Positions 28,809 to 63,136 of a stretch of DNA of 64,000 nt are shown here, piece after piece. Within the stretch, counting starts at the first letter, position 1. Every line of letters begins with the position of its first letter. A program made the translations under genes and the position numbers. The stretch lies in IMG/VR virus record IMGVR_UViG_2568526411_000004. The stretch is one strand, 5' to 3'. This DNA is from a virus (Duplodnaviria; Heunggongvirae; Uroviricota; Caudoviricetes). Under the pieces are notes generated by a model. It searched no databases. It had not been told where the DNA came from and was given only the letters and a program-made list of their open reading frames with translations.

Positions 28809-28837
28809 AAAAGGCGCATTAAGCGCCTTTTCTTTTA
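28808..28837. terminator. bidirectional terminator (GGCGC-attaa-GCGCC flanked by A- and T-runs)
   Basis: Lies between the convergent doc and nrdB genes. Confidence 0.7.
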
Positions 28838-32663: not shown

Positions 32664-33262
32664 GCCACCCCACCAGTTCGAGGGGTATCTTTTGTGATGC
32701 CCACTGATTCATCTGAGGCTTCTTCAAGCTCTTTTTCTAGCTCTTCAGGTGTTTTCTTTGGCGTTATGGGTGGAACGATAATTGAGTCACGTTCAAAATA
32801 GCCATCCCATGATTCAGCTTTTTTATTCCGCAACGAGTCATAATCAACTCGACTTACCAACGAAGAAATTGCACTTGCGCTTGCTTTGACTGAAAGGTCT
32901 GCCGCACTTACTCTCGATGTGAGATTTGATAAGCTGTTTGTTAGCTCGTTTGCGCCTAATGGAGCAGGGCAGATAACTGGTCGAAAAATCGTTTGCGAAT
33001 CACATCTTATCGTTACTCTTAGCTCATCCTCCCAGCTCTTGCGAGTGCGAACAACTTCGCTTTGAACCTTAAAGCAATGACAATTCAGGCATTGAGAGGA
33101 AATGAAGCCTTCGTTTACCGCTATTTTCATAGCCTTACTTTTGGAGTAACTAAGTGCGGCTTCAATATCTCTTTCGAGGGGGTCTAACCGAACGGTAACA
33201 CGAGCGGGATTTCCTTCTGCAAAGAGTTTTAGTTTGTCATTGCTCATCTGTTGGTGATCCAA
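32657..33262 (-). CDS. hypothetical protein
   Basis: 201 aa. Confidence 0.45.
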   Translation of the reverse strand: MDHQQMSNDKLKLFAEGNPARVTVRLDPLERDIEAALSYSKSKAMKIAVNEGFISSQCLNCHCFKVQSEVVRTRKSWEDELRVTIRCDSQTIFRPVICPAPLGANELTNSLSNLTSRVSAADLSVKASASAISSLVSRVDYDSLRNKKAESWDGYFERDSIIVPPITPKKTPEELEKELEEASDESVGITKDTPRTGGVAW

Positions 33263-33941: not shown

Positions 33942-34574
33942 TTACCACACTGCCACATTGTTTTTTAAACTTTGAATCTTTTGCTCGCGCACACAGCGGA
34001 GCTTCTTGATTTCCGCTTTTGCCTCTTGGATTGATTTGATCGCTGGTCTAAATGACAAGCTGTCGAAAACTTCCGTCAGCGTTTCATGCAATCCGTTAAA
34101 AAGCTGACGGCCACGATTTATATCAACCATGATTTCTGCAAAATCGGCAGCAAAAGCGGGTCTGAAGCGGAGGTGAATTAAATCAAGGATGTCCTCTTGA
34201 ACTTTCCAAAAGTCCATTTGCTCAATGAGGCTTTCATTTATGCCAGCCTTAAACAAAAGGAATGATTCTCCACCCAAAAACTCTCGCTGCGTCCAAGAGT
34301 CCGTACCGCTTTTATAGATTTTTCGAACCTGAATATTCCCACCCTGAGCCAACATAAACTCGTTAGCAAATGACAGAGGGGAAAATTCAGAGTCGTTAGC
34401 ATTCATATCAAGTTCAGCATTCATTTGATGCACAACGCCAGAAAGGATTTCCTTCACTTTTGAAGCGAGTTTTGCATCCTCATTTGCGCACAAATTCAAA
34501 TGCTGCTGAATTAAACTGTCCTCCTTTTCTAGCTGAGCGAGGACTTCATCCTCAATAGCTTCATAGATGTTCAC
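33942..34574 (-). CDS. hypothetical protein
   Basis: 210 aa. Confidence 0.45.
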   Translation of the reverse strand: MNIYEAIEDEVLAQLEKEDSLIQQHLNLCANEDAKLASKVKEILSGVVHQMNAELDMNANDSEFSPLSFANEFMLAQGGNIQVRKIYKSGTDSWTQREFLGGESFLLFKAGINESLIEQMDFWKVQEDILDLIHLRFRPAFAADFAEIMVDINRGRQLFNGLHETLTEVFDSLSFRPAIKSIQEAKAEIKKLRCVREQKIQSLKNNVAVW

Positions 34575-37782: not shown

Positions 37783-38181
37783 TTATTTTGCCATATAAAA
37801 ATGATGGTTGCCTATTTGACCAACATATTTGAGTTGTTTTTCCCAGCCTCGCTTACGATGTGAGAAAAAATGAGTAACACCGCTGTACCGTACTGGAACT
37901 GAAAATCGACCATTTAAGGCTTGTTCTGCAATTCGTTTTGAATCTTCCCAAGCTTCTTTTTCTTTTGGCTTTCCGCTGCTGTTGAGCGTTCTACCGCTTA
38001 CCTTACTTGCAGTCCATGAGAATTGATGTTTTCTAAGGACTTCCTGACAAATTTTACTATTGTCGCCTTCAGCGCGGTTAAGGGTGGTAATTGCAACTAA
38101 CTCTTTGCCTAGCTTTGGTTCACCTCGTGCTTCGTGGTAAATGTTCAAAGCTAGGCATGTCAGCGCGGATGTCAAAATCAT
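37783..38181 (-). CDS. SleB/CwlJ-family cell wall hydrolase
   Basis: The NIYHEARGE motif. The start is set at the ATG that overlaps the upstream stop (TAATG); the N-terminus is signal-like (MILTSALTCLA). Confidence 0.6.
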   Translation of the reverse strand: MILTSALTCLALNIYHEARGEPKLGKELVAITTLNRAEGDNSKICQEVLRKHQFSWTASKVSGRTLNSSGKPKEKEAWEDSKRIAEQALNGRFSVPVRYSGVTHFFSHRKRGWEKQLKYVGQIGNHHFYMAK

Positions 38182-38429
38182 TATGGTCGAACTCCTTGTC
38201 GTATTTTCTTCACAGCTGAAAGCCAATTTTTCTCGGCTCTATGGCAAGAAGGAGAAACAGGAGCGGGGAGAGAAAAGCCCGTTTTTGGGTCTTTCAAGAC
38301 AACGTGACCGCCTTTACTTTGGCGATATGTCCAACCTTCCTTAATTAAGGCTTTAGCTGCTCGGTCAATCGTGCGATTGTTAGAAATGTTCATATCTTTA
38401 AACTCTTTGTTTGTTTCAGATATGAACAT
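38181..38429 (-). CDS. small basic protein with weak HicA/YcfA-like resemblance
   Basis: The EGWTYRQSKGGHVVLKDPKTG segment matches the pattern only loosely. Confidence 0.25.
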   Translation of the reverse strand: MFISETNKEFKDMNISNNRTIDRAAKALIKEGWTYRQSKGGHVVLKDPKTGFSLPAPVSPSCHRAEKNWLSAVKKIRQGVRP

Positions 38430-38463
38430 TTTAAAAGTAAGTCATTGGTGACTGAATAATAGG

Positions 38464-38844
38464 CTACTTAATTTTGAGTGATTTTTCAAGATTGCCGTGA
38501 AAACGCTCTGAATTGATCATGAATTTGTTCATGTTTAAACGTTTGTACAAGCCTTTTGATGTGCTGTGTGGTTCGCAGTTCTCGAGAAAGTGGCTTAAAG
38601 GGGTGAGGTAGTAAGTGCATTTCTTGTTTACGCGGTGAACTACCCCAATTGCATCAATTGAGTTGTTAATACAATGACTGATGATAATAGGTTCAAAAAG
38701 CCATGAGTTGGTCTTTAAATCAATATTGCGATTCTTAGCTCCTGATCTCATGGCCAAGTAGATAGATTTGCCGCCTTGCGTGTAAACCATGCCGACTTGT
38801 TTGCCGTTGATTGAGTGTGGTTTTCTCATGAAAATAACCCCCAA
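38464..38844 (-). CDS. hypothetical protein
   Basis: 126 aa. Confidence 0.4.
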   Translation of the reverse strand: MGVIFMRKPHSINGKQVGMVYTQGGKSIYLAMRSGAKNRNIDLKTNSWLFEPIIISHCINNSIDAIGVVHRVNKKCTYYLTPLSHFLENCEPHSTSKGLYKRLNMNKFMINSERFHGNLEKSLKIK

Positions 38845-39344
38845 TTAGGATTTGTTCTTTTTGAATAATTAGGATTTGTTCTTTTTGGATTTGGAACTTC
38901 GGGTTGATCTACACTTTCTTTGGTGAGCGCAAAATACGCCCCAAGAAAGCACAGCACTTCTCTGGCTTTTGAGCCACCAACAGCCCCTTCTATCTTTCCA
39001 ATCAGCTCTCCCGCTCTAAACGAGTTATTAAAAAATACAGTGTACTCCTCGCGTTCACATTTATGATGAGTGGCATCATTGTGTTCGCGCATGTAGGTGT
39101 GAATTTCATCAAGGGCATAGCTGTACAGCTCCCCAACATTGAAATGCTCTTCATCATTGGATAATTTCACTTCGGGTCGCTGAGAGCCTAATTCTGGTAC
39201 GTCTCGACGCGTGTGACCTTTGACATAAGCCATCTTAGTTCTGTCTAACGTGGAGATAATCATTAGACGGCTGTTTTCATACTCGTTTCTAAATCGGTAT
39301 TCTAAGACGCTTAGCTCAGCATTTAGATTCGGGATGTATTTCAT
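38826..39344 (-). CDS. WGxWS-tail family protein (paralog 1; tail KRTNPNYSKRTNPNWGLFS)
   Basis: N-terminal region homologous to the 39341 gene. The start at 39344 forms an ATGA overlap with the upstream stop; the track start is a TTG. Confidence 0.5.
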   Translation of the reverse strand: MKYIPNLNAELSVLEYRFRNEYENSRLMIISTLDRTKMAYVKGHTRRDVPELGSQRPEVKLSNDEEHFNVGELYSYALDEIHTYMREHNDATHHKCEREEYTVFFNNSFRAGELIGKIEGAVGGSKAREVLCFLGAYFALTKESVDQPEVPNPKRTNPNYSKRTNPNWGLFS

Positions 39345-39778
39345 GACCAAGCTCCCCAATTTGGATTGTTGCGTTTCGGAACGGGTGGATCTCGAAAGAA
39401 CTTCAAAACCGCATTTTTATAATAAAAACCAACTGTTCTAGTTAGTTTCGTCTCTAACATACACATTTGACTGTCATCGTTAAAATAAAGAGGCGATGCC
39501 CACCAAATATATTCGGCCTTTCCAGCTACATCTCTTTTGACTTCCTCAATGAAAGTCTTTCCATTGGCGAACAGCTCTTCTTTATCTGTGTTTTCAGATG
39601 TTAAAAGGATTGTTTCCATTGGAGGCGCATGTGGTTCTCGCCAATTATAGAGACCCTTCAAAAAAGCCATTTTGGTTTCATTTGCATTGCTTAAAAACAT
39701 TAAACGGTAAACATAATTGCCTTGTTGAAAAAGATGCTCAACAACGTTTAGATCTGGCTCTAACTGTTCTTCTAACAT
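39341..39778 (-). CDS. WGxWS-tail family protein (paralog 2; tail KRNNPNWGAWS)
   Basis: Paralog of the 38826 gene; TAATG overlap with the upstream gene. Confidence 0.5.
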   Translation of the reverse strand: MLEEQLEPDLNVVEHLFQQGNYVYRLMFLSNANETKMAFLKGLYNWREPHAPPMETILLTSENTDKEELFANGKTFIEEVKRDVAGKAEYIWWASPLYFNDDSQMCMLETKLTRTVGFYYKNAVLKFFRDPPVPKRNNPNWGAWS

Positions 39779-40176
39779 TATGCCCAGCTCCCCCATTTGC
39801 CTTTGTAGCGTTCCGCTCGCTCGCGATCTGCGCGAGCTTTCATTTCTTTTCTAATCGCTTCCTGTTTTGCGGCTTCTTGAGCTTCTTTATGATATTTGTC
39901 GAAAATTTCTTTGGCTTCTAGCTTTGTGTAGACGGTAACTGGATATCTTTTCTTTAACTCCGGCACTTCAAAAACAATTAAGTCGATAATTGCGTTGACG
40001 GTTTCGTCAAATGTACTTGCCAAACCACCAAACTTACCCGCTCGAAATTTTCTCAACCACAATAAGTAATCAACACCTTCAAAATCGGAGTCATTCTGAA
40101 GCATGAGAATAAGTTCAGCCGGTGTTCGCCCTTTGTATTTCCCTTCAGGAAACTTCTCATCAAATTTTATAGTCAC
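39778..40176 (-). CDS. WGxWS-tail protein (tail KGKWGSWA), unrelated body
   Basis: 132 aa with a charged coiled-coil segment. Confidence 0.5.
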   Translation of the reverse strand: MTIKFDEKFPEGKYKGRTPAELILMLQNDSDFEGVDYLLWLRKFRAGKFGGLASTFDETVNAIIDLIVFEVPELKKRYPVTVYTKLEAKEIFDKYHKEAQEAAKQEAIRKEMKARADRERAERYKGKWGSWA

Positions 40177-40526
40177 TCTATTCGCCTTAAATAAATAACT
40201 GTTGATTTCTTCATTGCGCTTGCGATGTGTGGCCCGTAAAGCTTTAAGGTTAATTTATATAAGCGCTCTGCGCTTCTGCATTTGTCTTCGCTGTCAATTT
40301 CGGTGTGATTATCAGCACCGTAATAAGCGCATAGCTCGCCAAGCTTCCCGACAATTACACGATCAACAATCGCTAAACCTTCGATCATTTTAGTTTTTGA
40401 ATTTTGGAGATACACTCGATCACCAGCGGCAAGTTTCTTTGACCATGTAACCCCCAAACGAATTGTATTGAAGTGATCATCCATGCCTTGTAGTGGTGGT
40501 ACAAAATCCAAAACATAATGTTTCAT
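40173..40526 (-). CDS. hypothetical protein
   Basis: The track's GTG start at 40559 lies inside the terminator hairpin; the ATG at 40526 is preferred. Confidence 0.4.
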   Translation of the reverse strand: MKHYVLDFVPPLQGMDDHFNTIRLGVTWSKKLAAGDRVYLQNSKTKMIEGLAIVDRVIVGKLGELCAYYGADNHTEIDSEDKCRSAERLYKLTLKLYGPHIASAMKKSTVIYLRRIE

Positions 40527-40530
40527 AAGC

Positions 40531-40579
40531 AAAACCGCCCTAATAAAAATGTTATTCACACTTTTAGTTTAGGGCGGTC
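40531..40579 (-). terminator. terminator-like hairpin (ACCGCCCTAA ... TTAGGGCGGT) with T-run on the minus strand
   Basis: Downstream of the recA-like gene. Confidence 0.5.
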
Positions 40580-40598
40580 TAACTATTACTCCTGAGAA

Positions 40599-42095
40599 TT
40601 ATTTATCGGACTTGGGTAAGAAAGCTTTTAACTGCTCCATGCCATTAGGTTCTGCGTTTAACTTGGCTACAAGCTCTTTGACAAAGTACTTCTTGCCATC
40701 TGTCCATGTAACACGAGGCTTGTTGTATTCAATCCAACCGCGCTTAATTAAATGATCAAGCATAGCGGCGATATGATCGAAGTAAGCCACATCAAATTCG
40801 TTGTACATCATGCGTAAATTGCACTCTTGGAACGGTCGAGTGAATTTTGTTTTGACGCATTGAACGGTAATGTTTTGGCCCACAAATTCCTTTTCACCAA
40901 CTTCGTCTTTGTCCATGATTTTTTGACGACCTAAAGCCAAGCGTGCAGAAGCGTAAAACTCCATTGCTTTTCCGCCTGGTGTGCAGTTGTGAACAATGAA
41001 GCCATTGTCTTTGTTGCCCGCAAGGAAGTTGTGATTGCCCTCAATGGTAATGTCATACATGCGGGTGTCTAACTTCTTACCGCCTTCGCGAACCTCTGTG
41101 ACGACAGCATAGGCGGTTTTGTGCTTATGAGTAACAAGGTGATAGCCAACCTTCACATCCTCTGCGTTAATCCAGCCACACTCGCGAGTAAGAATTTTGT
41201 GATCGTTTGTTGCTGTAACCGCAGATACGCCATTCTTCGTTTCAGGTGTAGTTGCTCGAATGTGAATCCAACGCTTGTCGGTATCAGCGATAGAGCCATT
41301 GTCATGCCAATCAACGATAAATTTAGGCTCAATTTCACCTGTTGTTTCGTTGTATGACCACACTTCCTTGTTGATCTTGTTCTTAACGATTTCCTTGATT
41401 GTTGCAGTTGTGCCATCAACAAAGGGAATTTGAACGTCACCACGTAAACAGCGAGGATCACCAAACATAACACCCGGCTTTAAGCGCATTTGGTTGAGAT
41501 ATACGAATGTCGCGCTAAACTCTTCAGCTCGGTGACTCATGGTTTTTAACGTAGAAGACGTTACACGAGCCAGCGCCGTAGTGTCATTCATGGTGTATTC
41601 ATCAATTTCTTTGCCAGCTTGCGATTTAGGTAATGCAGCAGCAATAGAGTCAAATACAACTAAAATTGGCGCATCATCAGGAATAGCTTTAGATGCACGA
41701 ATTAACTGGCACGCTTTAGCGGCAAGTGTGTTTCCTTCCTCCCATGTTGCAGGCTTCGCGTAAATCCAATATGGACGCTGTGTGTTAAGACCGAACCCTT
41801 CAGCCAAACGAACATCGAAAGAGCGTTCCCAGTCAATGAAGATTGCACAGCCACCCATTTTCTGAGCGCGAACCATCCATTCAGTAGCGTCAGCAGTTTT
41901 ACCAGTAGATGATTCGCCAAATACTTCAACCATTCGACCAAATGGCAAACCGCCTTCGTAGCTTCCTGAAATAATGCGGTTTAATTCAGGGTTGCCCGTA
42001 TCAATCCAACGAGTGACCGCTTGTTCTGCATGGTTATCACCGATTGCTTTGAATAATGCGTCATTTAGTGCGTCGATTTGTGCTTGTGCTGTCAT
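40599..42095 (-). CDS. RecA-like recombinase (UvsX/RecA family) interrupted by a mini-intein
   Basis: Walker A GESSTGKT and RecA-like FVYLNQMRLKPGVMFGDPR | intein | CTPGGKAMEFYASARL. The start is the ATG at 42095 (MTAQAQ). Confidence 0.8.
   Translation of the reverse strand: MTAQAQIDALNDALFKAIGDNHAEQAVTRWIDTGNPELNRIISGSYEGGLPFGRMVEVFGESSTGKTADATEWMVRAQKMGGCAIFIDWERSFDVRLAEGFGLNTQRPYWIYAKPATWEEGNTLAAKACQLIRASKAIPDDAPILVVFDSIAAALPKSQAGKEIDEYTMNDTTALARVTSSTLKTMSHRAEEFSATFVYLNQMRLKPGVMFGDPRCLRGDVQIPFVDGTTATIKEIVKNKINKEVWSYNETTGEIEPKFIVDWHDNGSIADTDKRWIHIRATTPETKNGVSAVTATNDHKILTRECGWINAEDVKVGYHLVTHKHKTAYAVVTEVREGGKKLDTRMYDITIEGNHNFLAGNKDNGFIVHNCTPGGKAMEFYASARLALGRQKIMDKDEVGEKEFVGQNITVQCVKTKFTRPFQECNLRMMYNEFDVAYFDHIAAMLDHLIKRGWIEYNKPRVTWTDGKKYFVKELVAKLNAEPNGMEQLKAFLPKSDK
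40986..41450 (-). other. 155-aa mini-intein (Hint domain, no endonuclease domain) within the RecA-like gene
   Basis: It begins CLRGD after ...FGDPR and ends ...FIVHN before +1 Cys (CTPGG). Removing it restores a RecA-like FGDPRCTPGG core. Confidence 0.7.
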
Positions 42096-43226: not shown

Positions 43227-44114
43227 TTAAACTGGAATATCGAGGTCTAATAACGCTTCTAAATCAGTGTTAAGGTTGATCGGGGCATGCTCAACCGTTT
43301 GAGGTTGTGCAGGCTGAGTAACTTCGGTATACGAAATTTCCTCTGCGGTCTGTTGATATGCAGGTTGCGCAGCGCCGCCAGCAGCTAAGCCAATTGCAGC
43401 AGGTGCAGTACGAGGCGTATCGTTGCTTTGAGCGGGCGGTAACAAACCTACAACTTGTTGAACGTGTCCTAACGAGCGTTGTAAACGTTCGTCATTTTCT
43501 TGAGAAACATATTCATCAAGATTGTTAAGTTTTTCGTAAACTTGTGGAGGAACTGGTTTGGTTTCGGCATCTGGTAAAACAGTGTATTTGGTGTTCATAC
43601 CTGAGCCGTTTCGGTTAATCACAATGACTTGTGAACCGTTAGGATCAAATAAACGCGCACCCCATTTAGCCAATACATCAAAGATTGCGCTAAATACTGT
43701 TTTAGGCACTTCTAAGATTTGCGGATCGTTTGGACGGTCAGAATCTAAAGCCAAAACGTTCATTAAATAAGTTTGGCGTGAACCACACTCTTTTAATGCT
43801 TCGACTTGAGCTTCTGTTGTAGCTATGTTAGCAGCTTGTTTTAAAGCGCCACAGATCGGGCAATCCTTGCCAAATGTCTTATCTAAACAAACATAAGTAG
43901 ACTGTAGATCACCGTTTGCATCTTTAATAAAGTGCATACCGAAATCGTGGAACCACACGTCTTGCTTACCTTGCTTCCAACCCCACCCCGGAAGTAATAC
44001 ATAACGATTCGACCCATCTTTAGGTTTGAGAGTTTTCTCACGCGAGCGAATAGCGTTTTGCTTATTTGCTGCGGTTTCCATTAATTTAGCTGGGTCTAAA
44101 ACGAATTGAGTCAT
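43227..44114 (-). CDS. putative ssDNA-binding protein (gp32-like)
   Basis: Cys/His cluster (H..C..CPIC), acidic C-terminal tail DLEALLDLDIPV, and a position between the FEN and replication genes. Confidence 0.4.
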   Translation of the reverse strand: MTQFVLDPAKLMETAANKQNAIRSREKTLKPKDGSNRYVLLPGWGWKQGKQDVWFHDFGMHFIKDANGDLQSTYVCLDKTFGKDCPICGALKQAANIATTEAQVEALKECGSRQTYLMNVLALDSDRPNDPQILEVPKTVFSAIFDVLAKWGARLFDPNGSQVIVINRNGSGMNTKYTVLPDAETKPVPPQVYEKLNNLDEYVSQENDERLQRSLGHVQQVVGLLPPAQSNDTPRTAPAAIGLAAGGAAQPAYQQTAEEISYTEVTQPAQPQTVEHAPINLNTDLEALLDLDIPV

Positions 44115-44264: not shown

Positions 44265-45371
44265 TTATTGGGTATATGTACGATTTAATGAGCGAGCAGC
44301 GTTTTCAACCGCGGCCATCGAATCGTCATTATGATTATCTTGATTTAATATCCGCATCTGACCTTGTAGCTCGGCGCGCAAACTAGATCCGCGTTGAATT
44401 AACATGTCACGACGATGTACAAGCGCAAACACATTTCCCTTATGGATGTTGGCGTATTGCGTTGCCGTAGCATGTACGTCATAAGCCAGTTCCCATGTTG
44501 GGTCTCTGCGAATATAAGCGTCAATGAGACGTTCAGTAGGCTTTTCACCTGCTTTAATAAGTGATTTACGGTACACCTGAAACAACGTAGCTTCTACATG
44601 TTCGAGCTGTCGCTTCGCCAGTGCTTGCTGATGATCTGCGAGAGCTTGTTGAGCTGACCAGTAAGCCATTAATGAAGGTTGAGCTGTCATACATTGGTCA
44701 ATTGTGACATCGGAAATCGCTGTTTCTATCTGAAATGCGTGTACATCCGGCTTGTATTTCAGGTTTTCTAATGTGATACCTAATTTTCCGACATATCCCG
44801 TTGCTCGCTTTTGTTGAGCCATTGCTGATGTTTGTTGCGCAGGGCTTGGAGCAGCTTGCTCAGCAATAGGTTGAGGATTTTTAGGAGCAGTTGCGATAGG
44901 TGGTACGACGCTAGTATTAGCAGGAGCGGCGGATGGAGTAGAAGCGGTCGTAGCAAATATTTGATCAACAACTTTTTGATCTGCATCATTGTCCACCCTT
45001 TCTGGAACTGGCGGTTGTAACGTAGTCTGCTGTTGTGGTGGGGGTGTTTGAGTCTCTGGTTCTAATTCAACTTTTCCTTCAGCGTGTTTAAGCATTCCAC
45101 CAACATTAAAATTGGCGAACATAGCTTGAGGTGTTGATGCAACAGGGGTTGGCTCAGGAGTAATAACTTGCTGCACTGGCGGCTCAGGTACCGCTTGAGG
45201 CTGTGGAGAAGGTGCGGTCACTGTTTGTTGAACTACTTGAGGCTGTGGTTCTGCTGCTGGTGCAGAAGGTTGCTCAGCTGGCGTAGAATGCATTTCGCCA
45301 AGCATGTCTAATTCTTCAAATAGTTTGTCTAAGTCCTGTTCTGTTGCGAAATCTTGTGTTTGAGTTGTCAT
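44265..45371 (-). CDS. hypothetical Pro/Gln-rich protein
   Basis: 368 aa with a central low-complexity P/Q/T region. Confidence 0.55.
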   Translation of the reverse strand: MTTQTQDFATEQDLDKLFEELDMLGEMHSTPAEQPSAPAAEPQPQVVQQTVTAPSPQPQAVPEPPVQQVITPEPTPVASTPQAMFANFNVGGMLKHAEGKVELEPETQTPPPQQQTTLQPPVPERVDNDADQKVVDQIFATTASTPSAAPANTSVVPPIATAPKNPQPIAEQAAPSPAQQTSAMAQQKRATGYVGKLGITLENLKYKPDVHAFQIETAISDVTIDQCMTAQPSLMAYWSAQQALADHQQALAKRQLEHVEATLFQVYRKSLIKAGEKPTERLIDAYIRRDPTWELAYDVHATATQYANIHKGNVFALVHRRDMLIQRGSSLRAELQGQMRILNQDNHNDDSMAAVENAARSLNRTYTQ

Positions 45372-45455: not shown

Positions 45456-48400
45456 TCAACTTAATACTTCAGCCACTTTTTCAAAGGCTAAAGTAAGGTC
45501 TGGTAATTTTGAAGGGTCAAACGGTAATTGAGCTGGACTAATCCCGCATACGATTGTTGCATCAAGCGTTGGGTCATAAACCGCTGTAGCATTCAGTTCT
45601 GATATTCCACCTTTAACCGACGGTAAGAACTTTTTGGCCACCGAAGATCCTAGCGCAACAATAATGCTCGGTTTTACGAGTTTTATCTCTTCTTCCAAGT
45701 ACTTACTACAGTTGTTAATCTGCGAGTTAGTAAGAAACTTATCTGATTTACGCGCTTTCACCATAGTTGTGTAATAACCATCACTAGGATTTAAGCCAGC
45801 GTCTTTAATTGCCTGTTTAAGATAAGTTGAGACATCACCGACCATAAGTTTGTCTTGTTTGTCCTCATCGACGTTAGGACAATCTGTGACAACCATAAAC
45901 TTAACTTTGTTACCACAGCGCATAGTAGGGTGCTTTTTACCTTTCAAATCACAAGCGTCACACTGTTTGTATTCTTGAGCCACCATAATGATGCGACTCT
46001 TTAAATGCTGCTCGGTTAGATCAGCAACACGGTCAGCTTTTACAGTATCAATGATAATGCCGGGCAATAAGTCCATTTGAGCCTTGCGACGGTCGACGTG
46101 TCGTGCAGGTAATTGAGTAGGCTCAACACTCGCTAAAGCGCCAATTGCATTAAGCGATTCAACCACTTTGCTGTTTACCTTTGTTTTAGGCTGTGCTGCT
46201 GCTTCTTGGAACTCAAAGAGACTATCAAAACGTTTTTTAATTGGCGCATCGTCGTCATAGCCCCAAACGGGTGTTTTGTCGCGTTTATACTTAACAATCT
46301 TCAAGTCACGATGCTTTTCGCGTAATTTCACAATAGCGCGCGCCGTTGTCTCTGACACACCCTTTACAGCGTTAAAAGGTGCAAGAATGTTGTGATTGTC
46401 TAAAATGGTGTAACGATCAGAAGATAAGTTAATATCGGGCGGCAATACTTCGATACCGCATTCGCGCGCATCCTTTACCAACCCCTTCAATTTGTCTTCG
46501 TCTACGATTGATAAAGAGGCTGCGAAATACTCAGCAGGGTAGTGGACACGAACGTATGCACACCATACCGAGATAATCGAATAAGCCGTTGCGTGACTTT
46601 TGTTGAAACCATAGCCAGCAAAGGCTTCGATCTTGTCAAAGATGCGACCGGCTTCTCCTGGTTCTACTCCTGATTTAGCAACGGCGCCATCAATGAACTT
46701 TTGACGCATTTTAGCCATTTCATCTACATTCTTTTTACCCATTGCTTTACGGAGTTTATCCGCTTCAGCATTTGTAAAACCTGCAAAATCCACAGAGACT
46801 TTCATTACCTGTTCTTGATAGATTATGACGCCTAGCGTGTCTTTGAGTGCTTCAACCATATTAGGATGATCGTAACTTACTGAACGCATACCCTGACGCG
46901 TAGCAACATAATCATCTAAAAGTCCTGAATCCATCGGACCCGGACGATACAACGCGGTTGCAGCTGAAATATCATCAAAGGTCATTGAACCGCCTTTCGC
47001 AATATCTTTAAGCAGCTGCTTCATGCCTCCTGATTCAAACTGGAACACGCCCGTAGTATTACCGTTTGCGAAAGCTTGCAATGTTTTTGGGTCATCTAAT
47101 GGAATTTCTAAGTAATTTAGATAAATACCATGACGTTCTTTAATATAATCACGGGCGATATTCAGCGTATCTAAAGTGGACAAACCGAGTAAGTCCATTT
47201 TGACCAAACCGCAATCTTCTACAACGCGTTTATCCCAATTGACCACAGTGTCTTCAGATCTTCGCTCTAATACAGCGCGATTCACAATCGGCTCACCTGC
47301 AACAACAATACCGGCAGCGTGTTGGCCAAATGACTTCATTGTGCCTGCAAGTTTGACCGCGTGCTTCCAGATCTCAGGATGTGCTTTTTTAAATTTCTCT
47401 AATTCAGGAACCGCTTTAGCTGACTCTTCCAAAGACATTGTTTGGCCATGATCTTTGAGTACGAATTTTGAAGCTGTGAGTTCAAGAGGTGTTAAACCAC
47501 TTAGACGACCAACATCACGTAGCGCTGACGCAGAGGCTAAGGTCGAATAGTTGGAAATACCCGCTACGTAGTCTTTACCGTATTTATCAATCAAATACTC
47601 AACGACCTTATGACGACGTGAAGAGGCAAAGTCCAAGTCAGCATCGGGTAAGTCTAAACGTTCAGGGTTAATAAAACGCTCAAAGATCAAACCGAATCGA
47701 ATTGGATCGACGTCGGCAATACCGATTAGATACGCAACAAGTGAACCATTAACCGAACCACGTCCCGGACCTACAATCACACCATTGTTTTTCGCCCATG
47801 TAACAAGGTCTTCAACCATAAGGAAGTAAGATTCAAAACCCATGTTTTTAAGCGTTTTTAACTCATAGCCTAAGCGTTCTTTGTAAACGGTATCGAGTAA
47901 ATTTTTAGGTGGCAAATAGCCTAAGACGGGCTTGCTAAAACGTTTTTTCCAACCCTCAACGCATAACTCGCACAACTTCTTAAACTCATCATTAGCGAGT
48001 TTAGGCAATGAAACTGGTTGTTTTTCAAACTTGTACTGGCACTTTTGCACTACTTCTTCGCAGTTCTTAATGCCATTTGTCCAAATTGCAGTTACCGATT
48101 TAGGGTCAAGTACAGTGCGATTAAACTTAATTCCGCGTGCAATAGCAGCTTTAGTGCGGTCTATGATTGCGCTAGGCTCTACAAATGCAAATTCCTTAAC
48201 ATACTGACGACTGCGAAAAGGTGCATCTAACTGCGTGTTACTCGCAATGGCACTCATCACATCCATCGTACTAGCGTCTGCATTATCTAAGTAGCGGAAA
48301 GGGTAGGTGACAAGTGGCTTGCAGCCCAATGAGCCAACCAGCTCGATTGCGCGCTTATTCATTTTGTCGAAAAGGGGAGTGTTTATAGGGCAAAGTTCCG

Positions 48401-51759: not shown

Positions 51760-53817
51760 TTACTTGAGAAGTAATGAGCGAAGCTCGCCAATAACCGTGT
51801 TAGGTAAGTCGGCAACAGATCTCAAAACGACATTTTTTGGATAGAACTCTTTTACGCTTTGCGTATTGATTCCAATTCCAATAACTTCAAATCCTGAGCG
51901 AGAAATTTCCTGAACGGTTGTTTTGAGGTGTTTGTTTAGCGTTGGGGTCGGGCCGCTACCATTTGGATTACCATCACTTAACACCATAATGATTTTCCGT
52001 GCTTCTTTTTGAGCGCTTAGCCGCTGTGCCGCAATTTGAAGACACTCCCCATCAACATTCGTGTTTAAGAACCTAACATGAGGCAACCATGCAAAACGAT
52101 GGCGGTTTTCGAGCGTTAAGCGCTCATTAAACCCTTTAATGACTGGCATATATAAACCTTCCGTTCTTGTGTATCGAATCGTTTTGCCATTATGCGTAAA
52201 GCTTTCTTTTGCGTGTGGATCACCGTTTTTAGTTGTGAATCCAATAACTTCATGATTAATGTTGAGACGGTCAAGAACAGATGACATTGCATATGACGCT
52301 TGAGAGGCTGTGTTAATGCGTTCGCCCTTCATTGAACCTGAACAGTCAATTAAGAGGGTTACAGCGACATCTTTGGAACGATTCTCTTGTTTGCGACGGA
52401 ATATACGGTCGTCTCTAACAGCTAAACGAGAAAGTGACGCCTGGTTAATTTTTCCTTGCCGTAAACCGTTCTCCCATGTTCTTGCTGATCGAGCAACCAT
52501 AAGACGTTCCAAATCTTTTTGAATTGTTCCCGTAATTTTATTGGTTGCTCTATCTAAATCATCCATAAAGGACGATTTGTAATTTCTGCCAATTTTTAAT
52601 GTTTCGATAACGTCATATCTGTTTGTATAAACGAGATATGGCGCAGTGCAAGCAAAGTCTTTTGCTTCATTGCTTAACTGAACGGCAAACGAGGCGTCAA
52701 AATCATTCGCTGACTCCTTGTCGATCTCTTGCAAAATCGCCTTAGCGTCTAAATTAAGCTTTCTTAATTCCTTTTTCTTTTCTGACGTCTGATTCTCAGA
52801 GTCGCTAGACTCGTTGCCTTCATTGCTGTCGCCCTTACCATTCGATTTGTCAGACTTATTTTGGTGGCGCTCACTTTTACCATCTGATTCGTTCCCACCA
52901 TCCTCATCTTCGGATTGACCGCCTTTACCTCCATCACCTTGTTCGTCTTGCTCATCAGCATCGCCTGAAGACTCACCGGCACCATCTTCTTCAGAATCGC
53001 CATCATCTCCCTCACCAGCGCCTTGCTGACCGTCTGCATCTGAACCTTCATCTTCGTCAGAATTTCCGCCACCTGAGCCGCCTGGTTGCTCATCTTCATC
53101 TTCGTTAGATTGACCATTTCCTTGTTGATCACATTCTTCTTCCTGTTGTTGATCTTGCGGGGGTTGTTTCTCGTCTTCGGGACTTTTTAGAGCTTTGTAA
53201 ATTTCTTTAGCTAAGCGAACGGCATCCTGAGACGACTGCATTGATTGAAGTTGTGGCGCAAGGTGTTTGATGGCAGCATGAATATTTGGCAACAAATGAA
53301 TCTTGTCGCGCATATAAATTTCAAAAGTTGATTGACCCGAAAGGCTGCGGAGATATGGAGTGGCCAAGATACCCATAATCTTTGTTTCATCAACATCGGG
53401 ATGCGCCATAACTTCTTTAAATTTCGGAGTAATCATCTCTTCTAAAAAGAAGTGTGCGGTGTGATCTAAGTTAGAACCAGAACCTCTAAATTTTTCAGCC
53501 ATGCATTTTTCGATGCGGGCGTCTTCTAAAATATTTGCGAGACTTTTTAAAAGGTAATCGCCAACGCTATTTAGGGCTTTAAAATCAGAGAAAAGAACAT
53601 GTGCAACCTCATGATCTAAGAATCCCTGTATTGCTCTTATAAGTTCTTCTGATGCATTGTCCGAAAGGTACGGTAAATTGATAGAAATCGGATTTCCATT
53701 AATGTCAGACTTGACGTATGCTTCCATACCTATTTGAGTTACTTCAATTTTTTTCTCAATGAGAGCATTTGTGATTGCAACGATAGCGTTGCGTAAATTA
53801 GCAATGCGATTGTTCAT
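51760..53817 (-). CDS. CobT-like vWA-domain protein with long acidic/Gly-rich low-complexity insert
   Basis: vWA MIDAS LLIDCSGSM; central D/E/G/S-rich region. Confidence 0.65.
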   Translation of the reverse strand: MNNRIANLRNAIVAITNALIEKKIEVTQIGMEAYVKSDINGNPISINLPYLSDNASEELIRAIQGFLDHEVAHVLFSDFKALNSVGDYLLKSLANILEDARIEKCMAEKFRGSGSNLDHTAHFFLEEMITPKFKEVMAHPDVDETKIMGILATPYLRSLSGQSTFEIYMRDKIHLLPNIHAAIKHLAPQLQSMQSSQDAVRLAKEIYKALKSPEDEKQPPQDQQQEEECDQQGNGQSNEDEDEQPGGSGGGNSDEDEGSDADGQQGAGEGDDGDSEEDGAGESSGDADEQDEQGDGGKGGQSEDEDGGNESDGKSERHQNKSDKSNGKGDSNEGNESSDSENQTSEKKKELRKLNLDAKAILQEIDKESANDFDASFAVQLSNEAKDFACTAPYLVYTNRYDVIETLKIGRNYKSSFMDDLDRATNKITGTIQKDLERLMVARSARTWENGLRQGKINQASLSRLAVRDDRIFRRKQENRSKDVAVTLLIDCSGSMKGERINTASQASYAMSSVLDRLNINHEVIGFTTKNGDPHAKESFTHNGKTIRYTRTEGLYMPVIKGFNERLTLENRHRFAWLPHVRFLNTNVDGECLQIAAQRLSAQKEARKIIMVLSDGNPNGSGPTPTLNKHLKTTVQEISRSGFEVIGIGINTQSVKEFYPKNVVLRSVADLPNTVIGELRSLLLK

Positions 53818-59809: not shown

Positions 59810-61213
59810 TTAACCTACCTGTACGTTTTTAATCGCGTTATCAAATTGCTCATAAATGCGCGCTAGATCGTCTGCAACCGTTTTGTCTAAGCGATAACAG
59901 TCTTCAACCATGCGTGGCAAAAACAACGAATAATTAGGACTGCTCGCTGAAGGTTTTAGAATCGTGTTCGAACGCACAGTAATGATTCGACCAATCCAGT
60001 CTTCCGGGTTTGCGTCCAATTCGTCACGTAATTTTTCATTTTTAACGGCGACGTCGACAATTAATTGACCGCACGCTGACTTGCAACTTAATGCCCCTGC
60101 CCTTCCTTCATTTTTCGATCCAGCCTTGCCTTCATTGATACCCACGACTTCTAACTCACAGTCAGCCTCAAGCTTTAATTTGATTTGTTCTTTACTTGTG
60201 CCGTCTTTCCAAATTGCTGTTGAGTTTTTAATAACCGTGCCTTCTTTTCCTAATAGCAGCTTCTCTTCACAGTGCTTATATGCTTCGCTTAGGCTATTTA
60301 CAATACGGGTCTCGATGATGCGAATGTATTTACCGCCCTTAACCATGTTAAACAGTGCGCGAAAACGATTAGCGTATGGCGCCTTAAATACCCCTTTTGG
60401 CACTACCGCCTCAAAAGGGATGAAATCCCACACTTTATAAATTGGACGCTCATTCTCGGCAAATTTACCGCCCTTCAAGACGCTATTAAGAATGCCATTG
60501 CCAATCTCTCGTGGAAGCTCTACACCATCACGCTCGACAAGTAGCTCGCCGTGATACTGGAAGTTAGGCTGAAGTAAAAGCTCCGCTTCTTCTACGATGT
60601 CTTTAAACTCATCCATAGGGAATTGAGAGCCTTGACGAGAGACAAATGAAAGTAGTTCATTTGCACGTTTATTTCCGTTCGCGTACATGCCGTCTGCTTT
60701 CTCTTGTGAGAAAACGCCTTTGCCCCATGTCCACGTATCAAATTTTGCATCTTTAGGCAAAGAACAACGTTGATATGGAAATTCAGGAATTAAGCCTTTG
60801 CATGCTTTATTGATTGTTGATTCACTAAAGCCTGCGCGTAAGTCTTTACGCAAAATTCGAATAAATAGATCGCCTGACTTTTCGCTCAATTGAGCCAGCT
60901 GACAACGAACCGCTTCGCGAGCTGCATTGCCTGTAAGTTCACGTTTTTCTAGTGCGTATATGATTTCTAAAGTATCCGCTTCGTCAAACCATAGCTCACC
61001 AGTGCCCTTTGCATCTTTATCCGGGAGAATACCAAATATGCGGAATGGGTTATAAGCAAGTGAACACACTTCTTTAAATAAAGGATTGCTTATGTAGTGG
61101 CTCACCATTTCCAGTTTTTTATTTTTAGAACTCTCTTGAGCTATTTCATTGAGCGCCTGACACACAAGGTCGCTATTGAATGTTTGTGTTAAGACTGGCT
61201 CCAAAGTTGCCAT
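59810..61213 (-). CDS. ATP-dependent DNA ligase
   Basis: Nucleotidyltransferase motif I EKADGM (KxDG); 467 aa. Confidence 0.7.
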   Translation of the reverse strand: MATLEPVLTQTFNSDLVCQALNEIAQESSKNKKLEMVSHYISNPLFKEVCSLAYNPFRIFGILPDKDAKGTGELWFDEADTLEIIYALEKRELTGNAAREAVRCQLAQLSEKSGDLFIRILRKDLRAGFSESTINKACKGLIPEFPYQRCSLPKDAKFDTWTWGKGVFSQEKADGMYANGNKRANELLSFVSRQGSQFPMDEFKDIVEEAELLLQPNFQYHGELLVERDGVELPREIGNGILNSVLKGGKFAENERPIYKVWDFIPFEAVVPKGVFKAPYANRFRALFNMVKGGKYIRIIETRIVNSLSEAYKHCEEKLLLGKEGTVIKNSTAIWKDGTSKEQIKLKLEADCELEVVGINEGKAGSKNEGRAGALSCKSACGQLIVDVAVKNEKLRDELDANPEDWIGRIITVRSNTILKPSASSPNYSLFLPRMVEDCYRLDKTVADDLARIYEQFDNAIKNVQVG

Positions 61214-62201: not shown

Positions 62202-62624
62202 TTAACTCCAACTACCCCAAACCAAACTCTTGCCTTCCGTCTCATATCTTGAGCTTGCTTTTGACACCAAGATTCTTATCTTGGCTTCAGTCAAAAACTT
62301 GCCGATTCGTTGAACAATGTCCTCAGTCGATAGCATTGAGTTGTTTTTAAATGCAGATAGTCCAAACTGAATTGCTTTGGAGCCTGCAAATTTTTCGTCT
62401 TTTCCTAATTTTTCCACCTCAAGCGCAATGTGATTTATCCCCTCATTAATGCGGCAGACAAAACTATTGTCTGTGATCTTGAATTTGCCATTTGCTTTCT
62501 GATTGACAATAAAATCAAAAACCACACATTTGTTAGGGTCGTCACCGACGCTAACAAGATGGATGGATCTAGTTGTAGAAAAGTCATGGCTCATGTATGA
62601 ACCGCCAGTTTTAAGCCTGATCAT
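62202..62624 (-). CDS. WGxWS-tail protein (tail LVWGSWS)
   Basis: The ATG at 62624 forms an ATGA overlap with the upstream stop; the track start is a GTG. Confidence 0.5.
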   Translation of the reverse strand: MIRLKTGGSYMSHDFSTTRSIHLVSVGDDPNKCVVFDFIVNQKANGKFKITDNSFVCRINEGINHIALEVEKLGKDEKFAGSKAIQFGLSAFKNNSMLSTEDIVQRIGKFLTEAKIRILVSKASSRYETEGKSLVWGSWS

Positions 62625-63136
62625 GACCACGCACCCCACTTGGAGCCATAGCTTTCTTGGATACGTTTCGCTTCTGATGCTTTTGATACTGGCACAGTCG
62701 GCATTGCGTATTGGTCATCCATAACCCCAAAAAGGTATTCAAGGTAGTCATCTGCCAAAAATTGACTTAATGTCGCCTTCATTATTCTGTTTGCGTTAAA
62801 TTCGATCATATGTGGTCTTCTCACCACAATTTCGTGTGCGCAAAGGTCTCTAAATTTTCCAAATAGCGTGTTTGCCAATTTGCGTTCTTCAGGCGTGTGT
62901 GAGGTGTAGCCTTTTGATTTTTTCTCATCAATCACTTTTGAAAGATGCTCTTTGGCTGAGCGCGCATCCTTAAAAAGATAAACCACTTCTTGAAACCGCC
63001 CGGATAACTTCCCGTAATATCCTCTAACCCAACCCGCGCCAGTTTGGGTGTTATACGCATGGATAAGCATATAATCTTTGCCGCCCGAACTTGAGTCACA
63101 GATCATGTATTCAACCATTTCGATTTTAAGGGTCAT
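62621..63136 (-). CDS. WGxWS-tail protein (tail SKWGAWS)
   Basis: 171 aa. Confidence 0.5.
   Translation of the reverse strand: MTLKIEMVEYMICDSSSGGKDYMLIHAYNTQTGAGWVRGYYGKLSGRFQEVVYLFKDARSAKEHLSKVIDEKKSKGYTSHTPEERKLANTLFGKFRDLCAHEIVVRRPHMIEFNANRIMKATLSQFLADDYLEYLFGVMDDQYAMPTVPVSKASEAKRIQESYGSKWGAWS

What the first reader, a model, noticed from the sequence alone, without database searches (positions are those of the whole stretch)
38826..40176. Cluster of small proteins sharing a C-terminal W-G-x-W-S/A tail, with a second cluster at 62202-63136
Five proteins end in the same tail: RTNPNWGLFS, RNNPNWGAWS, KGKWGSWA, LVWGSWS and SKWGAWS. Two are clear paralogs; the other three have unrelated bodies. 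They form two tandem, translationally coupled arrays (ATGA/TAATG overlaps) about 22 kb apart. One protein carries the KRTNPN(Y/W) unit twice. A short shared C-terminal motif on otherwise unrelated proteins suggests a docking or targeting peptide. Possible roles are recruitment to a common host or phage hub, a protease or chaperone tag, or a capsid-packaging signal. I know of no described motif that matches.
Basis: seen in the sequence. Interest (0 to 1): 0.8.

Follow-up and report, generated by a model that had tools for sequence, protein, structure and literature searches.

The report
Shared C-terminal tryptophan tail on phage-plasmid proteins
Five small proteins of an Acinetobacter phage-plasmid, and many more in related SSU5-type phages, end in the same tryptophan-glycine tail on a floppy linker; it looks like an undescribed address label that ties different accessory proteins to one partner that is still unidentified.

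Summary
The window is a ~107-kb Acinetobacter baumannii phage-plasmid. W-G-x-[W/F]-[S/A] occurs exactly five times in the six-frame translation, each time directly before a stop (about 0.02 expected by chance).

The tail is selected at the protein level. The Gly, Ala, Ser, Asn and Pro codons vary synonymously. Orthologues and extra cassette genes in related phage-plasmids keep the tail. The protein after the primase also keeps it in 62%-GC phages (NPNWGIWG, WGMF), Pseudomonas phage hairong (WGAFG) and Salmonella phage SSU5 (GWATW). Hairong alone has about 15 small proteins ending in [Y/F/W/L/C]-G-x-[W/F]-[A/S].

AlphaFold models of two tail proteins show a folded core and then a roughly 30-residue low-confidence C-terminus. 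Both cores resemble the DNA-break-binding WGR domain of PARPs.

Best reading: a lineage-wide C-terminal short linear motif, tethering variable accessory proteins to one receptor. I could not identify the receptor. Leads are the CobT-like VWA protein (part of the tails fit the Ku-binding motif R-x-x-P-x-W), a replisome or repair protein, or a host hub.

Rivals are a C-terminal degron, and a by-product of translational coupling (TGGGGAG also serves as the next gene's Shine-Dalgarno). I found no prior description of this motif.

The parts
38826..39344 (-). Gene A (172 aa, phrog_5427). Folded core, then a low-confidence linker, then the tail ...KRTNPNYSKRTNPNWGLFS. Tail codons are at 38829-38843.
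38853..38900 (-). 24-nt tandem duplication that doubles the KRTNPN unit upstream of the tail of A.
   Evidence: Sequence read. Orthologues P0003 and P0004 carry a single unit.
39341..39778 (-). Gene B (145 aa from the ATG that overlaps C's stop; paralogue of A). Tail ...PKRNNPNWGAWS, codons 39344-39358. Its stop overlaps the start of A (TCATGA).
39778..40176 (-). Gene C (132 aa, phrog_9337, GTG start overlapping the upstream gene's stop). A charged helical C-terminal stretch is followed by the tail ...RYKGKWGSWA, codons 39781-39795.
   Evidence: The orthologue in L004/L005 ends RYKGQWGSWA.
62621..63136 (-). Gene E (171 aa, phrog_20393). N-terminal WGR-like domain, low-confidence C-terminal 30 residues, tail ...YGSKWGAWS (codons 62624-62638). 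This is the lineage-conserved member, located after the primase.
   Evidence: Pfam WGR E=0.0076, below the curated cut-off. hhalign to genuine WGR repeats gives 78.7%. Foldseek top hits are PARP1/2/3 WGR domains. pLDDT is below 50 for residues 141-170. Relatives are shown.
62202..62624 (-). Gene D (140 aa if it starts at the ATG overlapping E's stop; 130 aa in RefSeq; phrog_21485). Tail ...GKSLVWGSWS, codons 62205-62219.
   Evidence: Weak body similarity to L013_G147, which ends GQWGSW.
38464..38829 (-). 121-aa gene (phrog_9044) translationally coupled to A. It has no tail and closes array 1.
40173..40526 (-). 117-aa conserved gene (phrog_3705) between the RecA-like gene and array 1. It is coupled to C, has no tail, and is conserved in phage hairong.
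61520..62119 (-). Cysteine-rich ~200-aa protein (phrog_4558). It is always the next conserved gene after the E-type gene, directly adjacent or translationally coupled in hairong, L028, L031 and SSU5. Candidate partner.
51760..53817 (-). CobT-like protein with a C-terminal VWA domain (intact MIDAS DCSGS). With the CobS-like MoxR AAA+ ATPase at 50421-51620 it is a candidate receptor. This is inferred only.
   Evidence: Pfam. MIDAS motif check. Present in every tail-bearing phage examined.
40599..42095 (-). RecA/UvsX-like recombinase with an intein, directly upstream of array 1 (context gene).
59810..61213 (-). ATP-dependent DNA ligase, downstream of array 2 (context gene).

Best explanation
The tail is a C-terminal short linear motif. 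In this plasmid it reads W-G-x-[W/F]-[S/A]-COOH. Across the lineage it generalises to aromatic-G-x-[W/F]-(small)-COOH. It sits at the end of a flexible linker and is read by one common receptor.

The motif works as a tether or address label. It brings a variable, fast-evolving set of small accessory proteins to the same place in the SSU5-type replication/recombination machinery. Several of these proteins have folds or family matches tied to DNA breaks and ends (WGR-like A/B and E here; a Mu-Gam-like protein in phage hairong).

Shown:
- The motif is non-random, strictly C-terminal and under amino-acid-level selection.
- It is shared by at least 7 body families with no detectable sequence similarity.
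- It is conserved in syntenic genes of distant phages.
- It is preceded by low-confidence (presumably disordered) sequence in the two modelled proteins.

Inferred:
- That a receptor exists and that binding, rather than degradation, is the outcome.
- The identity of the receptor. My ranking is: a conserved phage protein of the module (the CobT-like VWA/MoxR pair, the Cys-rich protein next to E, SSB, RecA or SbcCD), then a universal host hub.
For: 1. Statistics. There are 5 of 5 occurrences before a stop, against 0.02 expected. In phage hairong, 10 of 23 six-frame occurrences of [WFY]G.[WF][ASG] are terminal, against about 5% expected.
2. Protein-level selection. The tail Gly uses all four codons; Ala uses GCG/GCT/GCA; Ser uses TCA/AGT/AGC; and NPN uses AAT/AAC and CCA/CCT. 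Orthologue differences peak at codon position 3.
3. Conservation while bodies diverge or are replaced:
- P0003 and P0004 are 62-79% identical to A and end NPNWGAWS.
- L004 and L005 carry extra cassette genes X149 and Y155 with new bodies and the same tail.
- L013 carries three genes ending WGLWS, WGVFS and WGSW.
- The bodies show no similarity by blastp or hhalign.
4. The gene after the primase keeps the tail in:
- 60-63%-GC viral contigs (NPNWGIWG, NSNWGIWG, NPMWGMF);
- Pseudomonas phage hairong (GGGWGAFG);
- SSU5 (GWATW).
5. The tail persists where no downstream gene overlaps it: hairong_050 (75-nt gap), L013_G147 (93-nt gap) and window gene D.
6. Architecture. Both models show a confident core followed by about 30 residues with pLDDT below 50 that include the tail. 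The linkers are rich in P, N, K and E.
7. Many clients per genome. About 15 hairong proteins carry the tail, two in ANB28, two ending WATW in SSU5, and one 102-aa ORF between cobT and cobS in L031.
8. Genomic position. In the plasmid all five genes lie inside the replication/recombination module.
Against: - No receptor was identified, and no multimer modelling was possible.
- The flanks are basic in the window but acidic in hairong and the high-GC phages, so only 4-5 residues are common. That is little information for a specific interface.
- In most cases the tail codons overlap the ribosome-binding region of the next gene. Part of the conservation of W-G could therefore act at the nucleotide level.
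- An exposed non-polar C-terminus is also what cytoplasmic proteases recognise, so the outcome could be degradation rather than docking.
- Most hairong clients lie outside the replication module, in a block of small genes of unknown function. This weakens the 'replisome' part of the statement.
Confidence: 0.5

Rival explanations
1. C-terminal degron. The exposed, mostly non-polar aromatic tail on a floppy linker is recognised by a host AAA+ protease (ClpXP, ClpAP, FtsH or Lon). A whole class of accessory proteins is thereby kept short-lived, for example to silence them in the plasmid state.
For: - The motif is strictly C-terminal and follows a low-confidence linker.
- Its last five residues carry no charge in the window.
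- The hosts range from Acinetobacter to high-GC bacteria, which fits a universal host machine.
- From established knowledge: non-polar C-terminal pentapeptides such as WVAAA and the ssrA tag destabilise cytoplasmic proteins, and aromatic-rich tags (beta20, sul20) target Lon.
Against: - Known degrons do not need an invariant Gly or a fixed aromatic-x-x-aromatic spacing.
- Many hairong tails have K, E or R at the x position (YGKWA, YGEWA, FGRWS).
- The E-type protein is a conserved, syntenic module component, not an obvious candidate for rapid turnover.
Confidence: 0.2
2. Specific version of docking. The tail is a functional analogue of the eukaryotic Ku-binding motifs and docks on the VWA domain of the phage CobT-like protein. 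The terminal carboxylate may complete the MIDAS metal site, and the CobS-like MoxR ATPase then acts on the bound client.
For: - RNNPNW, RTNPNW, RVNPNW and RDTPNW fit the minimal KBM R-x-x-P-x-W. XLF-like motifs are a basic patch plus an aromatic residue at the C-terminus. KBMs bind the vWA domains of Ku80 and Ku70 (PMC4831024, PMC10682503).
- CobT-like VWA with intact DxSxS, together with CobS-like, is present in every tail-bearing phage examined.
- In L031 a 102-aa ORF ending FTWGQF lies between cobT and cobS.
- The clients include WGR-like and Gam-like DNA-end binders.
Against: - Only about a third of the tails have the R-x-x-P-x-W flank. Hairong, L012 and SSU5 tails have acidic or no flanks.
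- The minimal KBM is so short that it occurs in more than 600 human proteins.
- Co-occurrence does not discriminate, because the whole replication module co-occurs with the tail.
- No binding evidence of any kind was obtained.
Confidence: 0.12
3. By-product of gene organisation. The tail codons are conserved because TGGGG(A/G) is the Shine-Dalgarno sequence, and TCATGA/TAATG the overlapping stop/start, of the next gene in translationally coupled cassettes. The roughly 20-nt junction may also serve as a recombination site for cassette shuffling. On this view the peptide itself has no function.
For: - In the window and in L004, L005 and L013, most tails end ...TGG GGA GCx TGG TCA TGA. GGAG lies 7-9 nt before an overlapping ATG.
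- The near-identical junction recurs 3-4 times per array in L004 and L005.
- The number of cassettes varies between relatives.
Against: - The Gly third position takes all four bases, and the x and last codons vary.
- The second Trp is not explained by a Shine-Dalgarno requirement.
- The motif persists without any overlapping downstream gene (hairong_050, L013_G147, window D).
- It persists in hairong with codons such as TAC GGC AAA TGG GCT, which are poor Shine-Dalgarno matches.
- About a dozen other 1- or 4-nt overlapping junctions in the same plasmid follow tails with no W or G pattern.
Confidence: 0.06
4. Virion-loading signal. The tail docks on the capsid interior, portal or scaffold, like encapsulin cargo-loading peptides. 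DNA-end-binding and anti-host proteins are then packaged and injected with the genome.
For: - Many small unrelated clients share the tail.
- One client is a Mu-Gam-like end protector, and WGR-like folds bind DNA ends.
- From established knowledge: encapsulin cargo proteins use short C-terminal peptides that bind an HK97-fold shell.
Against: - All clients are encoded in replication or early-type regions, none in the structural modules.
- The plasmid's ArdA anti-restriction protein lacks the tail.
- No proteomic evidence is available.
Confidence: 0.06
5. Variant clamp-binding motif that recruits the proteins to the host beta sliding clamp.
For: - NWGLF superficially resembles QLGLF (reading).
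- The plasmid encodes DnaE but no recognisable clamp. The 368-aa gene after dnaE is an acidic peptide, a P/Q-rich linker and a helical domain, not a clamp.
Against: - The plasmid's own DnaE carries a canonical-type QMDLLP motif, which differs from the tail.
- In the tail, the position equivalent to the second Leu is small or charged (A, S, K, E).
- The Gln position is not conserved.
Confidence: 0.04

Closest known systems
Ku-binding motifs of NHEJ accessory factors (APLF-type KBM R-x-x-P-x-W; C-terminal XLF-like motif)
   Same: Both are short peptides on disordered tails of otherwise unrelated DNA-break-repair accessory proteins. Both have a conserved Pro-x-Trp or a C-terminal aromatic residue and act as position-independent tethers to one hub. 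Four tails in this lineage fit R-x-x-P-x-W exactly. The clients include WGR-like and Gam (Ku-like) proteins.
   Different: No Ku with a vWA domain is present here. The basic patch is not conserved across the lineage. The invariant Gly and the second aromatic residue at position -2 or -1 are not KBM features. Binding is untested.
C-terminal aromatic docking tails of replisome proteins (E. coli SSB tip DDDIPF; T7 gp2.5 and gp4 acidic tails ending in Phe; T4/RB69 gp43 clamp-binding tail)
   Same: In both, an extreme C-terminal aromatic residue with a free carboxylate sits on a flexible tail and is used to dock on partner proteins of the replication/recombination machinery. The genes lie in a replication module.
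   Different: In those systems the hub carries the tail (SSB), or one or two core enzymes do. Here many accessory proteins carry it. The sequence differs (W-G-x-W, not acidic-IPF). The plasmid's own gp32-like SSB has a separate DLDIPV tip.
Beta-clamp-binding motif QL[SD]LF and PIP box
   Same: Both are penta- to octapeptides, often C-terminal, shared by many unrelated clients of one hub.
   Different: The consensus is not met, and DnaE of this plasmid has a canonical-type motif instead.
Non-polar C-terminal degrons (ssrA tag, WVAAA-type tails) and the HbYX motif of proteasome activators
   Same: Recognition depends on the last 3-5 residues and the free C-terminus. The hydrophobic-aromatic-X-COOH pattern matches HbYX formally.
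   Different: The invariant Gly and the first aromatic residue are not part of those signals. The plasmid has no proteasome/HslV-like gene.
C-terminal tail of the ribonucleotide reductase beta subunit, which binds the alpha subunit
   Same: The same plasmid uses a second family of C-terminal Trp tails (GGALAW on RNR-beta; GGVAW and KAFVW on small proteins next to nrdA). C-terminal peptide docking therefore appears to be a recurrent device in this genome.
   Different: The consensus differs (terminal Trp, no W-G), and the presumed partner (RNR-alpha) is different.

Membership tests
Ku-binding motif (APLF-type KBM) | Minimal sequence R-x-x-P-x-W preceded by a basic patch | tested here: inconclusive
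   Met by window A and B (RTNPNW, RNNPNW), L004_X149 (RVNPNW) and L005_Y155 (RDTPNW). Not met by C, D, E, the L012/L028 E-type protein, or the hairong and SSU5 tails. Motif definition taken from PMC4831024.
Ku-binding motif (APLF-type KBM) | Binds a hydrophobic pocket of the Ku80 vWA domain | not testable with these tools
   No Ku was identified. The only VWA domain found is in the CobT-like protein. No multimer modelling or binding assay was available.
XLF-like C-terminal motif | Basic patch followed by a conserved Phe at the extreme C-terminus | tested here: inconclusive
   Window A (KRTNPNWGLFS) fits. Most tails have Trp instead, and flanks are acidic in other lineages.
Beta-clamp-binding motif | Q-L-[S/D]-L-F, or Q-L-x-L-x-L | tested here: not met
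   No tail fits. A regex scan of the plasmid proteins finds QMDLLP in DnaE instead.
SSB C-terminal tip type tail | Run of acidic residues followed by I-P-F-COOH or a similar ending | tested here: not met
   The window tails have net positive flanks. The plasmid's gp32-like SSB carries its own DLDIPV tip.
HbYX motif | Hydrophobic-Tyr-X at the C-terminus, together with a proteasome-type ring to dock on | tested here: not met
   The pattern is met formally (A-W-S, L-F-S). However, phmmer with the HslV-like protein of L012 finds no homologue in the plasmid, and several relatives end directly on W or F.
WGR domain (protein E, and A/B at fold level) | Pfam PF05406 match above the gathering threshold | tested here: not met
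   E scores 16.8 bits against a cut-off of 22, E=0.0076. A and B have no Pfam hit.
WGR domain (protein E, and A/B at fold level) | Profile or structural similarity to bona fide WGR domains | tested here: met
ssrA-like or non-polar C-terminal degron | Tail-dependent degradation by ClpXP, ClpAP, FtsH or Lon | not testable with these tools
   Only the sequence character of the tail (uncharged last five residues in the window) could be noted.

The most novel reading that the evidence does not exclude
SSU5-type phages and phage-plasmids use a dedicated peptide 'addressing code': aromatic-G-x-W/F at the free C-terminus. A single phage-encoded receptor reads it, most attractively the VWA/MIDAS domain of the enigmatic CobT-like protein working with its MoxR-type CobS-like ATPase. 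The code assembles a changing set of WGR-like, Gam-like and other small proteins into a DNA-end/nick-handling complex. This would be a bacterial-virus analogue of the Ku/KBM recruitment system of eukaryotic end joining. It would also give the widespread phage CobS/CobT pair its first function.
Probability: 0.12. Interest if true: 0.85.

Novelty: new variant of a known kind. Interest (0 to 1): 0.65.

Why it matters
If the tail is a docking code, one short peptide gives experimental access to several things at once.

- A peptide pull-down should identify the hub.
- The client list can be read straight from genome sequences: 5 proteins here and about 15 in phage hairong. It assigns a shared context to a set of proteins that are otherwise hypothetical, in a phage-plasmid present as a >=99%-identical plasmid in 27 A. 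baumannii records, most of those with a stated source being clinical isolates.
- It may explain conserved but enigmatic module components (CobS/CobT-like, the Cys-rich protein, WGR-like proteins).
- It would be a portable tag for recruiting engineered proteins to the phage replication machinery.
- It shows that short linear motifs, well studied in eukaryotes and their viruses, can organise whole sets of phage accessory proteins.

If the tail is instead a degron, it defines a class-wide turnover signal relevant to the plasmid/lytic switch.

Tried and rejected
- Phage collection: no DNA or protein match for the tail genes. The element is found only in the plasmid collection.
- IMG/VR search with protein A alone: nothing found.
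- K-mer and exhaustive HMM searches with A and E: they return only the Acinetobacter family, one divergent E (P0009) and a generic WGR protein.
- DNA pattern scan for NPNWGxW[SAG]-stop:
  - Representative genomes gave only chance hits (short ORFs and a truncated integrase).
  - Metagenomes gave only the known phage-plasmid plus chance hits, including an out-of-frame ORF inside a hydroxylase gene.
- A 16-column tail profile cannot reach significance in a 5.8-billion-protein database (best members 22-30 bits, E 0.1-4000).
- The search for related loci with the diverse E alignment failed because no conserved stretch was available.
- The 368-aa gene next to dnaE was considered as a phage sliding clamp and rejected. 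It has no Pfam or PDB match, and its architecture is an acidic N-peptide, a roughly 170-aa P/Q-rich linker and a helical domain.
- An HslV-like peptidase seen in L012 was considered as an HbYX receptor. It is absent from the plasmid.
- Presence/absence profiling across the plasmid, hairong, ANB28, L012/L028, L013 and L031 did not single out a partner, because the whole module co-occurs with the tail.
The BFVD search returned only uncharacterised proteins.
- Pfam, NCBIfam and PHROGs give no function for A-D or for most hairong clients.
Full report
**What the window is.** The 3-kb stretch around array 1 (window 38000-41000) is 100% identical to 26 and more than 99% identical to one further Acinetobacter baumannii plasmid of 105-114 kb. 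All 27 are typed as non-mobilizable. The full record NZ_CP027608.1 is a phage-plasmid. It carries RepB, ParA and ParB together with terminase, portal, capsid, tail and lysis genes. It also has a large replication/recombination/nucleotide module of the SSU5 type: DnaB-like helicase, primase, ATP-dependent ligase, CobT/CobS-like proteins, DnaE, a gp32-like SSB, a 5'-3' exonuclease, an intein-containing RecA-like recombinase, SbcCD, RNR and ThyX. The window is the reverse complement of this record, so all the genes discussed lie on the minus strand. The phage collection contains nothing similar to the tail genes.

**Checking the observation.** The five ORFs and their C-termini are exactly as described. 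W-G-x-[W/F]-[S/A] occurs five times in the six-frame translation of the window and of the whole plasmid, every time immediately before a stop codon. Simulated sequences with the same first-order composition give 0.585 occurrences anywhere and 0.02 before a stop.

The genes are real. Each matches a PHROG family over its full length, with E-values from 1e-73 to 1e-123. Differences to orthologues are concentrated at third codon positions. The stop/start overlaps (TCATGA, TAATG) are present. The doubled KRTNPN unit in A is a 24-nt tandem duplication, and orthologues lack it.

In most cases the codons for W-G (TGGGGA/G) lie 7-9 nt upstream of the overlapping start codon of the next gene, where they make a good Shine-Dalgarno sequence. 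Four observations show that this does not explain the motif:
- The Gly codon uses all four third bases. Ala uses GCG, GCT and GCA. Ser uses TCA, AGT and AGC. The NPN flank varies synonymously.
- The motif persists where no gene overlaps: hairong_050 has a 75-nt gap, L013_G147 a 93-nt gap, and window gene D none.
- Hairong tails use codons that are poor Shine-Dalgarno matches, for example TAC GGC AAA TGG GCT.
- About a dozen other 1- or 4-nt overlapping junctions in the same plasmid follow C-termini with no such pattern.

I therefore treat the tail as a peptide motif whose codons have been co-opted for translational coupling.

**Conservation in relatives.** Orthologues of A that are 62-79% identical end in QKRTNPNWGAWS. 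Related phage-plasmid contigs have the same array after the RecA-like gene, but with extra members. These are a 149-aa and a 155-aa protein with new bodies, ending NPNWGAWS, KNWGAWS and TPNWGAWS. A more distant 103-kb element (L013) has three genes after its primase, ending YKGQWGLWS, SYPDWGVFS and NGQWGSW.

With the last 12 residues removed, only two pairs are detectably related: A with B, and E with the E-type proteins of other phages. At least seven body families share the tail.

**Spread beyond Acinetobacter.** A degenerate DNA pattern for the tail found 60-63%-GC viral contigs. In them the gene after the DnaB-primase pair encodes a homologue of E ending NPNWGIWG, NSNWGIWG or NPMWGMF. That gene is directly coupled to the same Cys-rich protein and is followed by the ligase.

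The closest phage by ligase similarity is Pseudomonas phage hairong (Nickievirus). It has the same synteny, and its post-primase protein ends GGGWGAFG.

Scanning the rest of hairong gave the most striking result. About 15 annotated small proteins end in [Y/F/W/L/C]-G-x-[W/F]-[A/S], for example YGEWA, YGKWA, FGRWS, YGTWA, WGSFA, FGKWA, CGLWS, WGTW and FGHFS. Of 23 six-frame occurrences of [WFY]G.[WF][ASG] in the 87 kb of hairong examined, 10 are terminal.

Stenotrophomonas phage ANB28 has the same module without an E-type gene, but two of its proteins end YGEW and YGGW. In Salmonella phage SSU5 the syntenic post-primase protein ends TGWATW, and the protein after the SbcC-like gene ends PTWATW.

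The common core is thus aromatic-[G/A]-x-[W/F]-(0 or 1 small residue)-COOH. The flanks are basic in the window but acidic elsewhere. Scans of representative bacterial genomes and of metagenomes for the NPN-type tail returned only this element and chance hits. The motif therefore appears to be specific to this lineage.

**What the proteins are.** E has a sub-threshold Pfam WGR hit. Its profile retrieves a bona fide multi-WGR protein and aligns to those repeats at 78.7% probability. Its AlphaFold model (pLDDT 61) has PARP1/2/3 WGR domains as top Foldseek hits.

One hairong client matches a PHROG annotated 'Mu Gam-like end protection'. C, D and most hairong clients have no detectable family.

In both models the last roughly 30 residues, including the tail, have pLDDT below 50. 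The architecture is a folded module, then a flexible linker, then the tail, as in SSB or KBM-bearing proteins.

**Mechanism.** The pattern is many unrelated or highly diverged small proteins with a strictly C-terminal 4-5-residue aromatic motif at the end of a flexible linker, conserved across hosts from Acinetobacter to high-GC bacteria. This is the signature of a short linear motif read by one common receptor. I consider a tether or docking function the most likely (about 0.5). The clients would be brought to a component of the replication/recombination module or to a universal host hub.

I could not identify the receptor:
- The 368-aa gene next to dnaE is not a clamp.
- DnaE itself has a canonical-type clamp motif, QMDLLP, unlike the tail.
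- An HslV-like candidate is absent from the plasmid.
- Phylogenetic profiling does not discriminate, because the whole module co-occurs with the tail.

One lead is that a third of the tails fit the minimal eukaryotic Ku-binding motif R-x-x-P-x-W, and A resembles the C-terminal XLF-like motif. Those peptides bind vWA domains (PMC4831024, PMC10682503). Every tail-bearing phage examined encodes a CobT-like VWA protein with an intact MIDAS motif next to a MoxR-type ATPase. L031 has a tail-bearing 102-aa ORF between those two genes. This is an analogy, not evidence of binding, and the basic flank is not conserved. I give it about 0.12.

The main rival is a C-terminal degron (about 0.2). The coupling by-product, virion loading and clamp binding are each below 0.1.

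**Novelty.** C-terminal docking peptides are a known kind (SSB tip, T7 gp2.5 and gp4 tails, clamp-binding and PIP motifs, KBMs). I found no description of this motif or of its spread over SSU5-type phages in the literature searches. All carriers are annotated as hypothetical proteins. I rate it a new variant of a known kind, with interest 0.65. It is real, conserved and experimentally tractable, but its receptor and function remain inferred.

Noticed in passing
window 28835-29827(-), 32343-32663(-), 32657-33247(-), 33942-34574(-), 15752-16096(-): A second family of C-terminal tails ends in a terminal Trp. RNR-beta ends KTGGALAW. Two small proteins just upstream of nrdA end PRTGGVAW and PRTKAFVW. 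The protein after SbcC ends NNVAVW, and a 114-aa protein ends TKNAW. The RNR-beta C-tail is the classical alpha-binding peptide, so the neighbouring small proteins may mimic it to dock on, or regulate, RNR-alpha.
   Followed up: partly
L059 (Pseudomonas phage hairong OM223115, 67000-112842) and L014: About 15 annotated small proteins of phage hairong end in [Y/F/W/L/C]-G-x-[W/F]-[A/S]. One of them (hairong_162) matches a 'Mu Gam-like end protection' PHROG. Many of these genes are also linked by ATGA, GTGA or TTGA overlaps.
   Followed up: partly
L061 38241-39035 and L062 16436-17182 (Salmonella phage SSU5): SSU5_042 (between the primase and the Cys-rich/ligase genes) ends TGWATW. SSU5_076 (after the SbcC-like exonuclease) ends PTWATW. 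This is a W-A-T-W variant of the tail at two syntenic positions.
   Followed up: partly
window 40599-42095(-): The RecA/UvsX-like recombinase is interrupted by an intein (Cys ... HNC; 498 aa). The orthologues in L004 and L005 are 343 aa and intein-free.
   Followed up: partly
window 45456-48911(-): The DnaE-type polymerase has a C-terminal uracil-DNA-glycosylase-superfamily domain (Pfam UDG, residues 1002-1133). It also has an internal QMDLLP clamp-type motif at residue 945.
   Followed up: no
window 44265-45371(-): The conserved 368-aa protein after dnaE has a short acidic N-terminal peptide (DLDKLFEELD), a roughly 170-residue P/Q/A-rich linker and a conserved helical C-terminal domain. In phage ANB28 the homologue is only 177 aa. 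Function unknown.
   Followed up: partly
window 43227-44114(-): The gp32-family SSB ends in ...LEALLDLDIPV. This resembles the tip of bacterial SSB (DDDIPF) rather than the acidic domain of T4 gp32.
   Followed up: no
window 62116-62199(-): A 27-aa ORF (MAIKPHLF...) starts 3 nt after the stop of D, and its stop overlaps the start of the Cys-rich gene. It may be a coupling ORF or may arise by chance.
   Followed up: no
window 63148-63504(-): A 118-aa protein between the primase and E is built of G-D/N-V/I repeats (SGNV.., GDI..). It has a weak LiaG-family hit and looks like a beta-helix or bactofilin-like protein. It has no counterpart in the related phages.
   Followed up: no
window 38181-38429(-) and 37783-38226(-): A HicA-like toxin homologue (sub-threshold Pfam hit) lies directly next to a SleB-type cell-wall hydrolase, with no obvious HicB partner. 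It sits between array 1 and sbcD.
   Followed up: no
L012 10367-10867(-) (IMG/VR 3300047323_000160): By eye, a protein of the high-GC phage carrying an E-type gene has an HslV/proteasome-beta-like N-terminus (TTIAFKDG...). This was not checked against any family library. phmmer finds no homologue in the Acinetobacter plasmid.
   Followed up: partly
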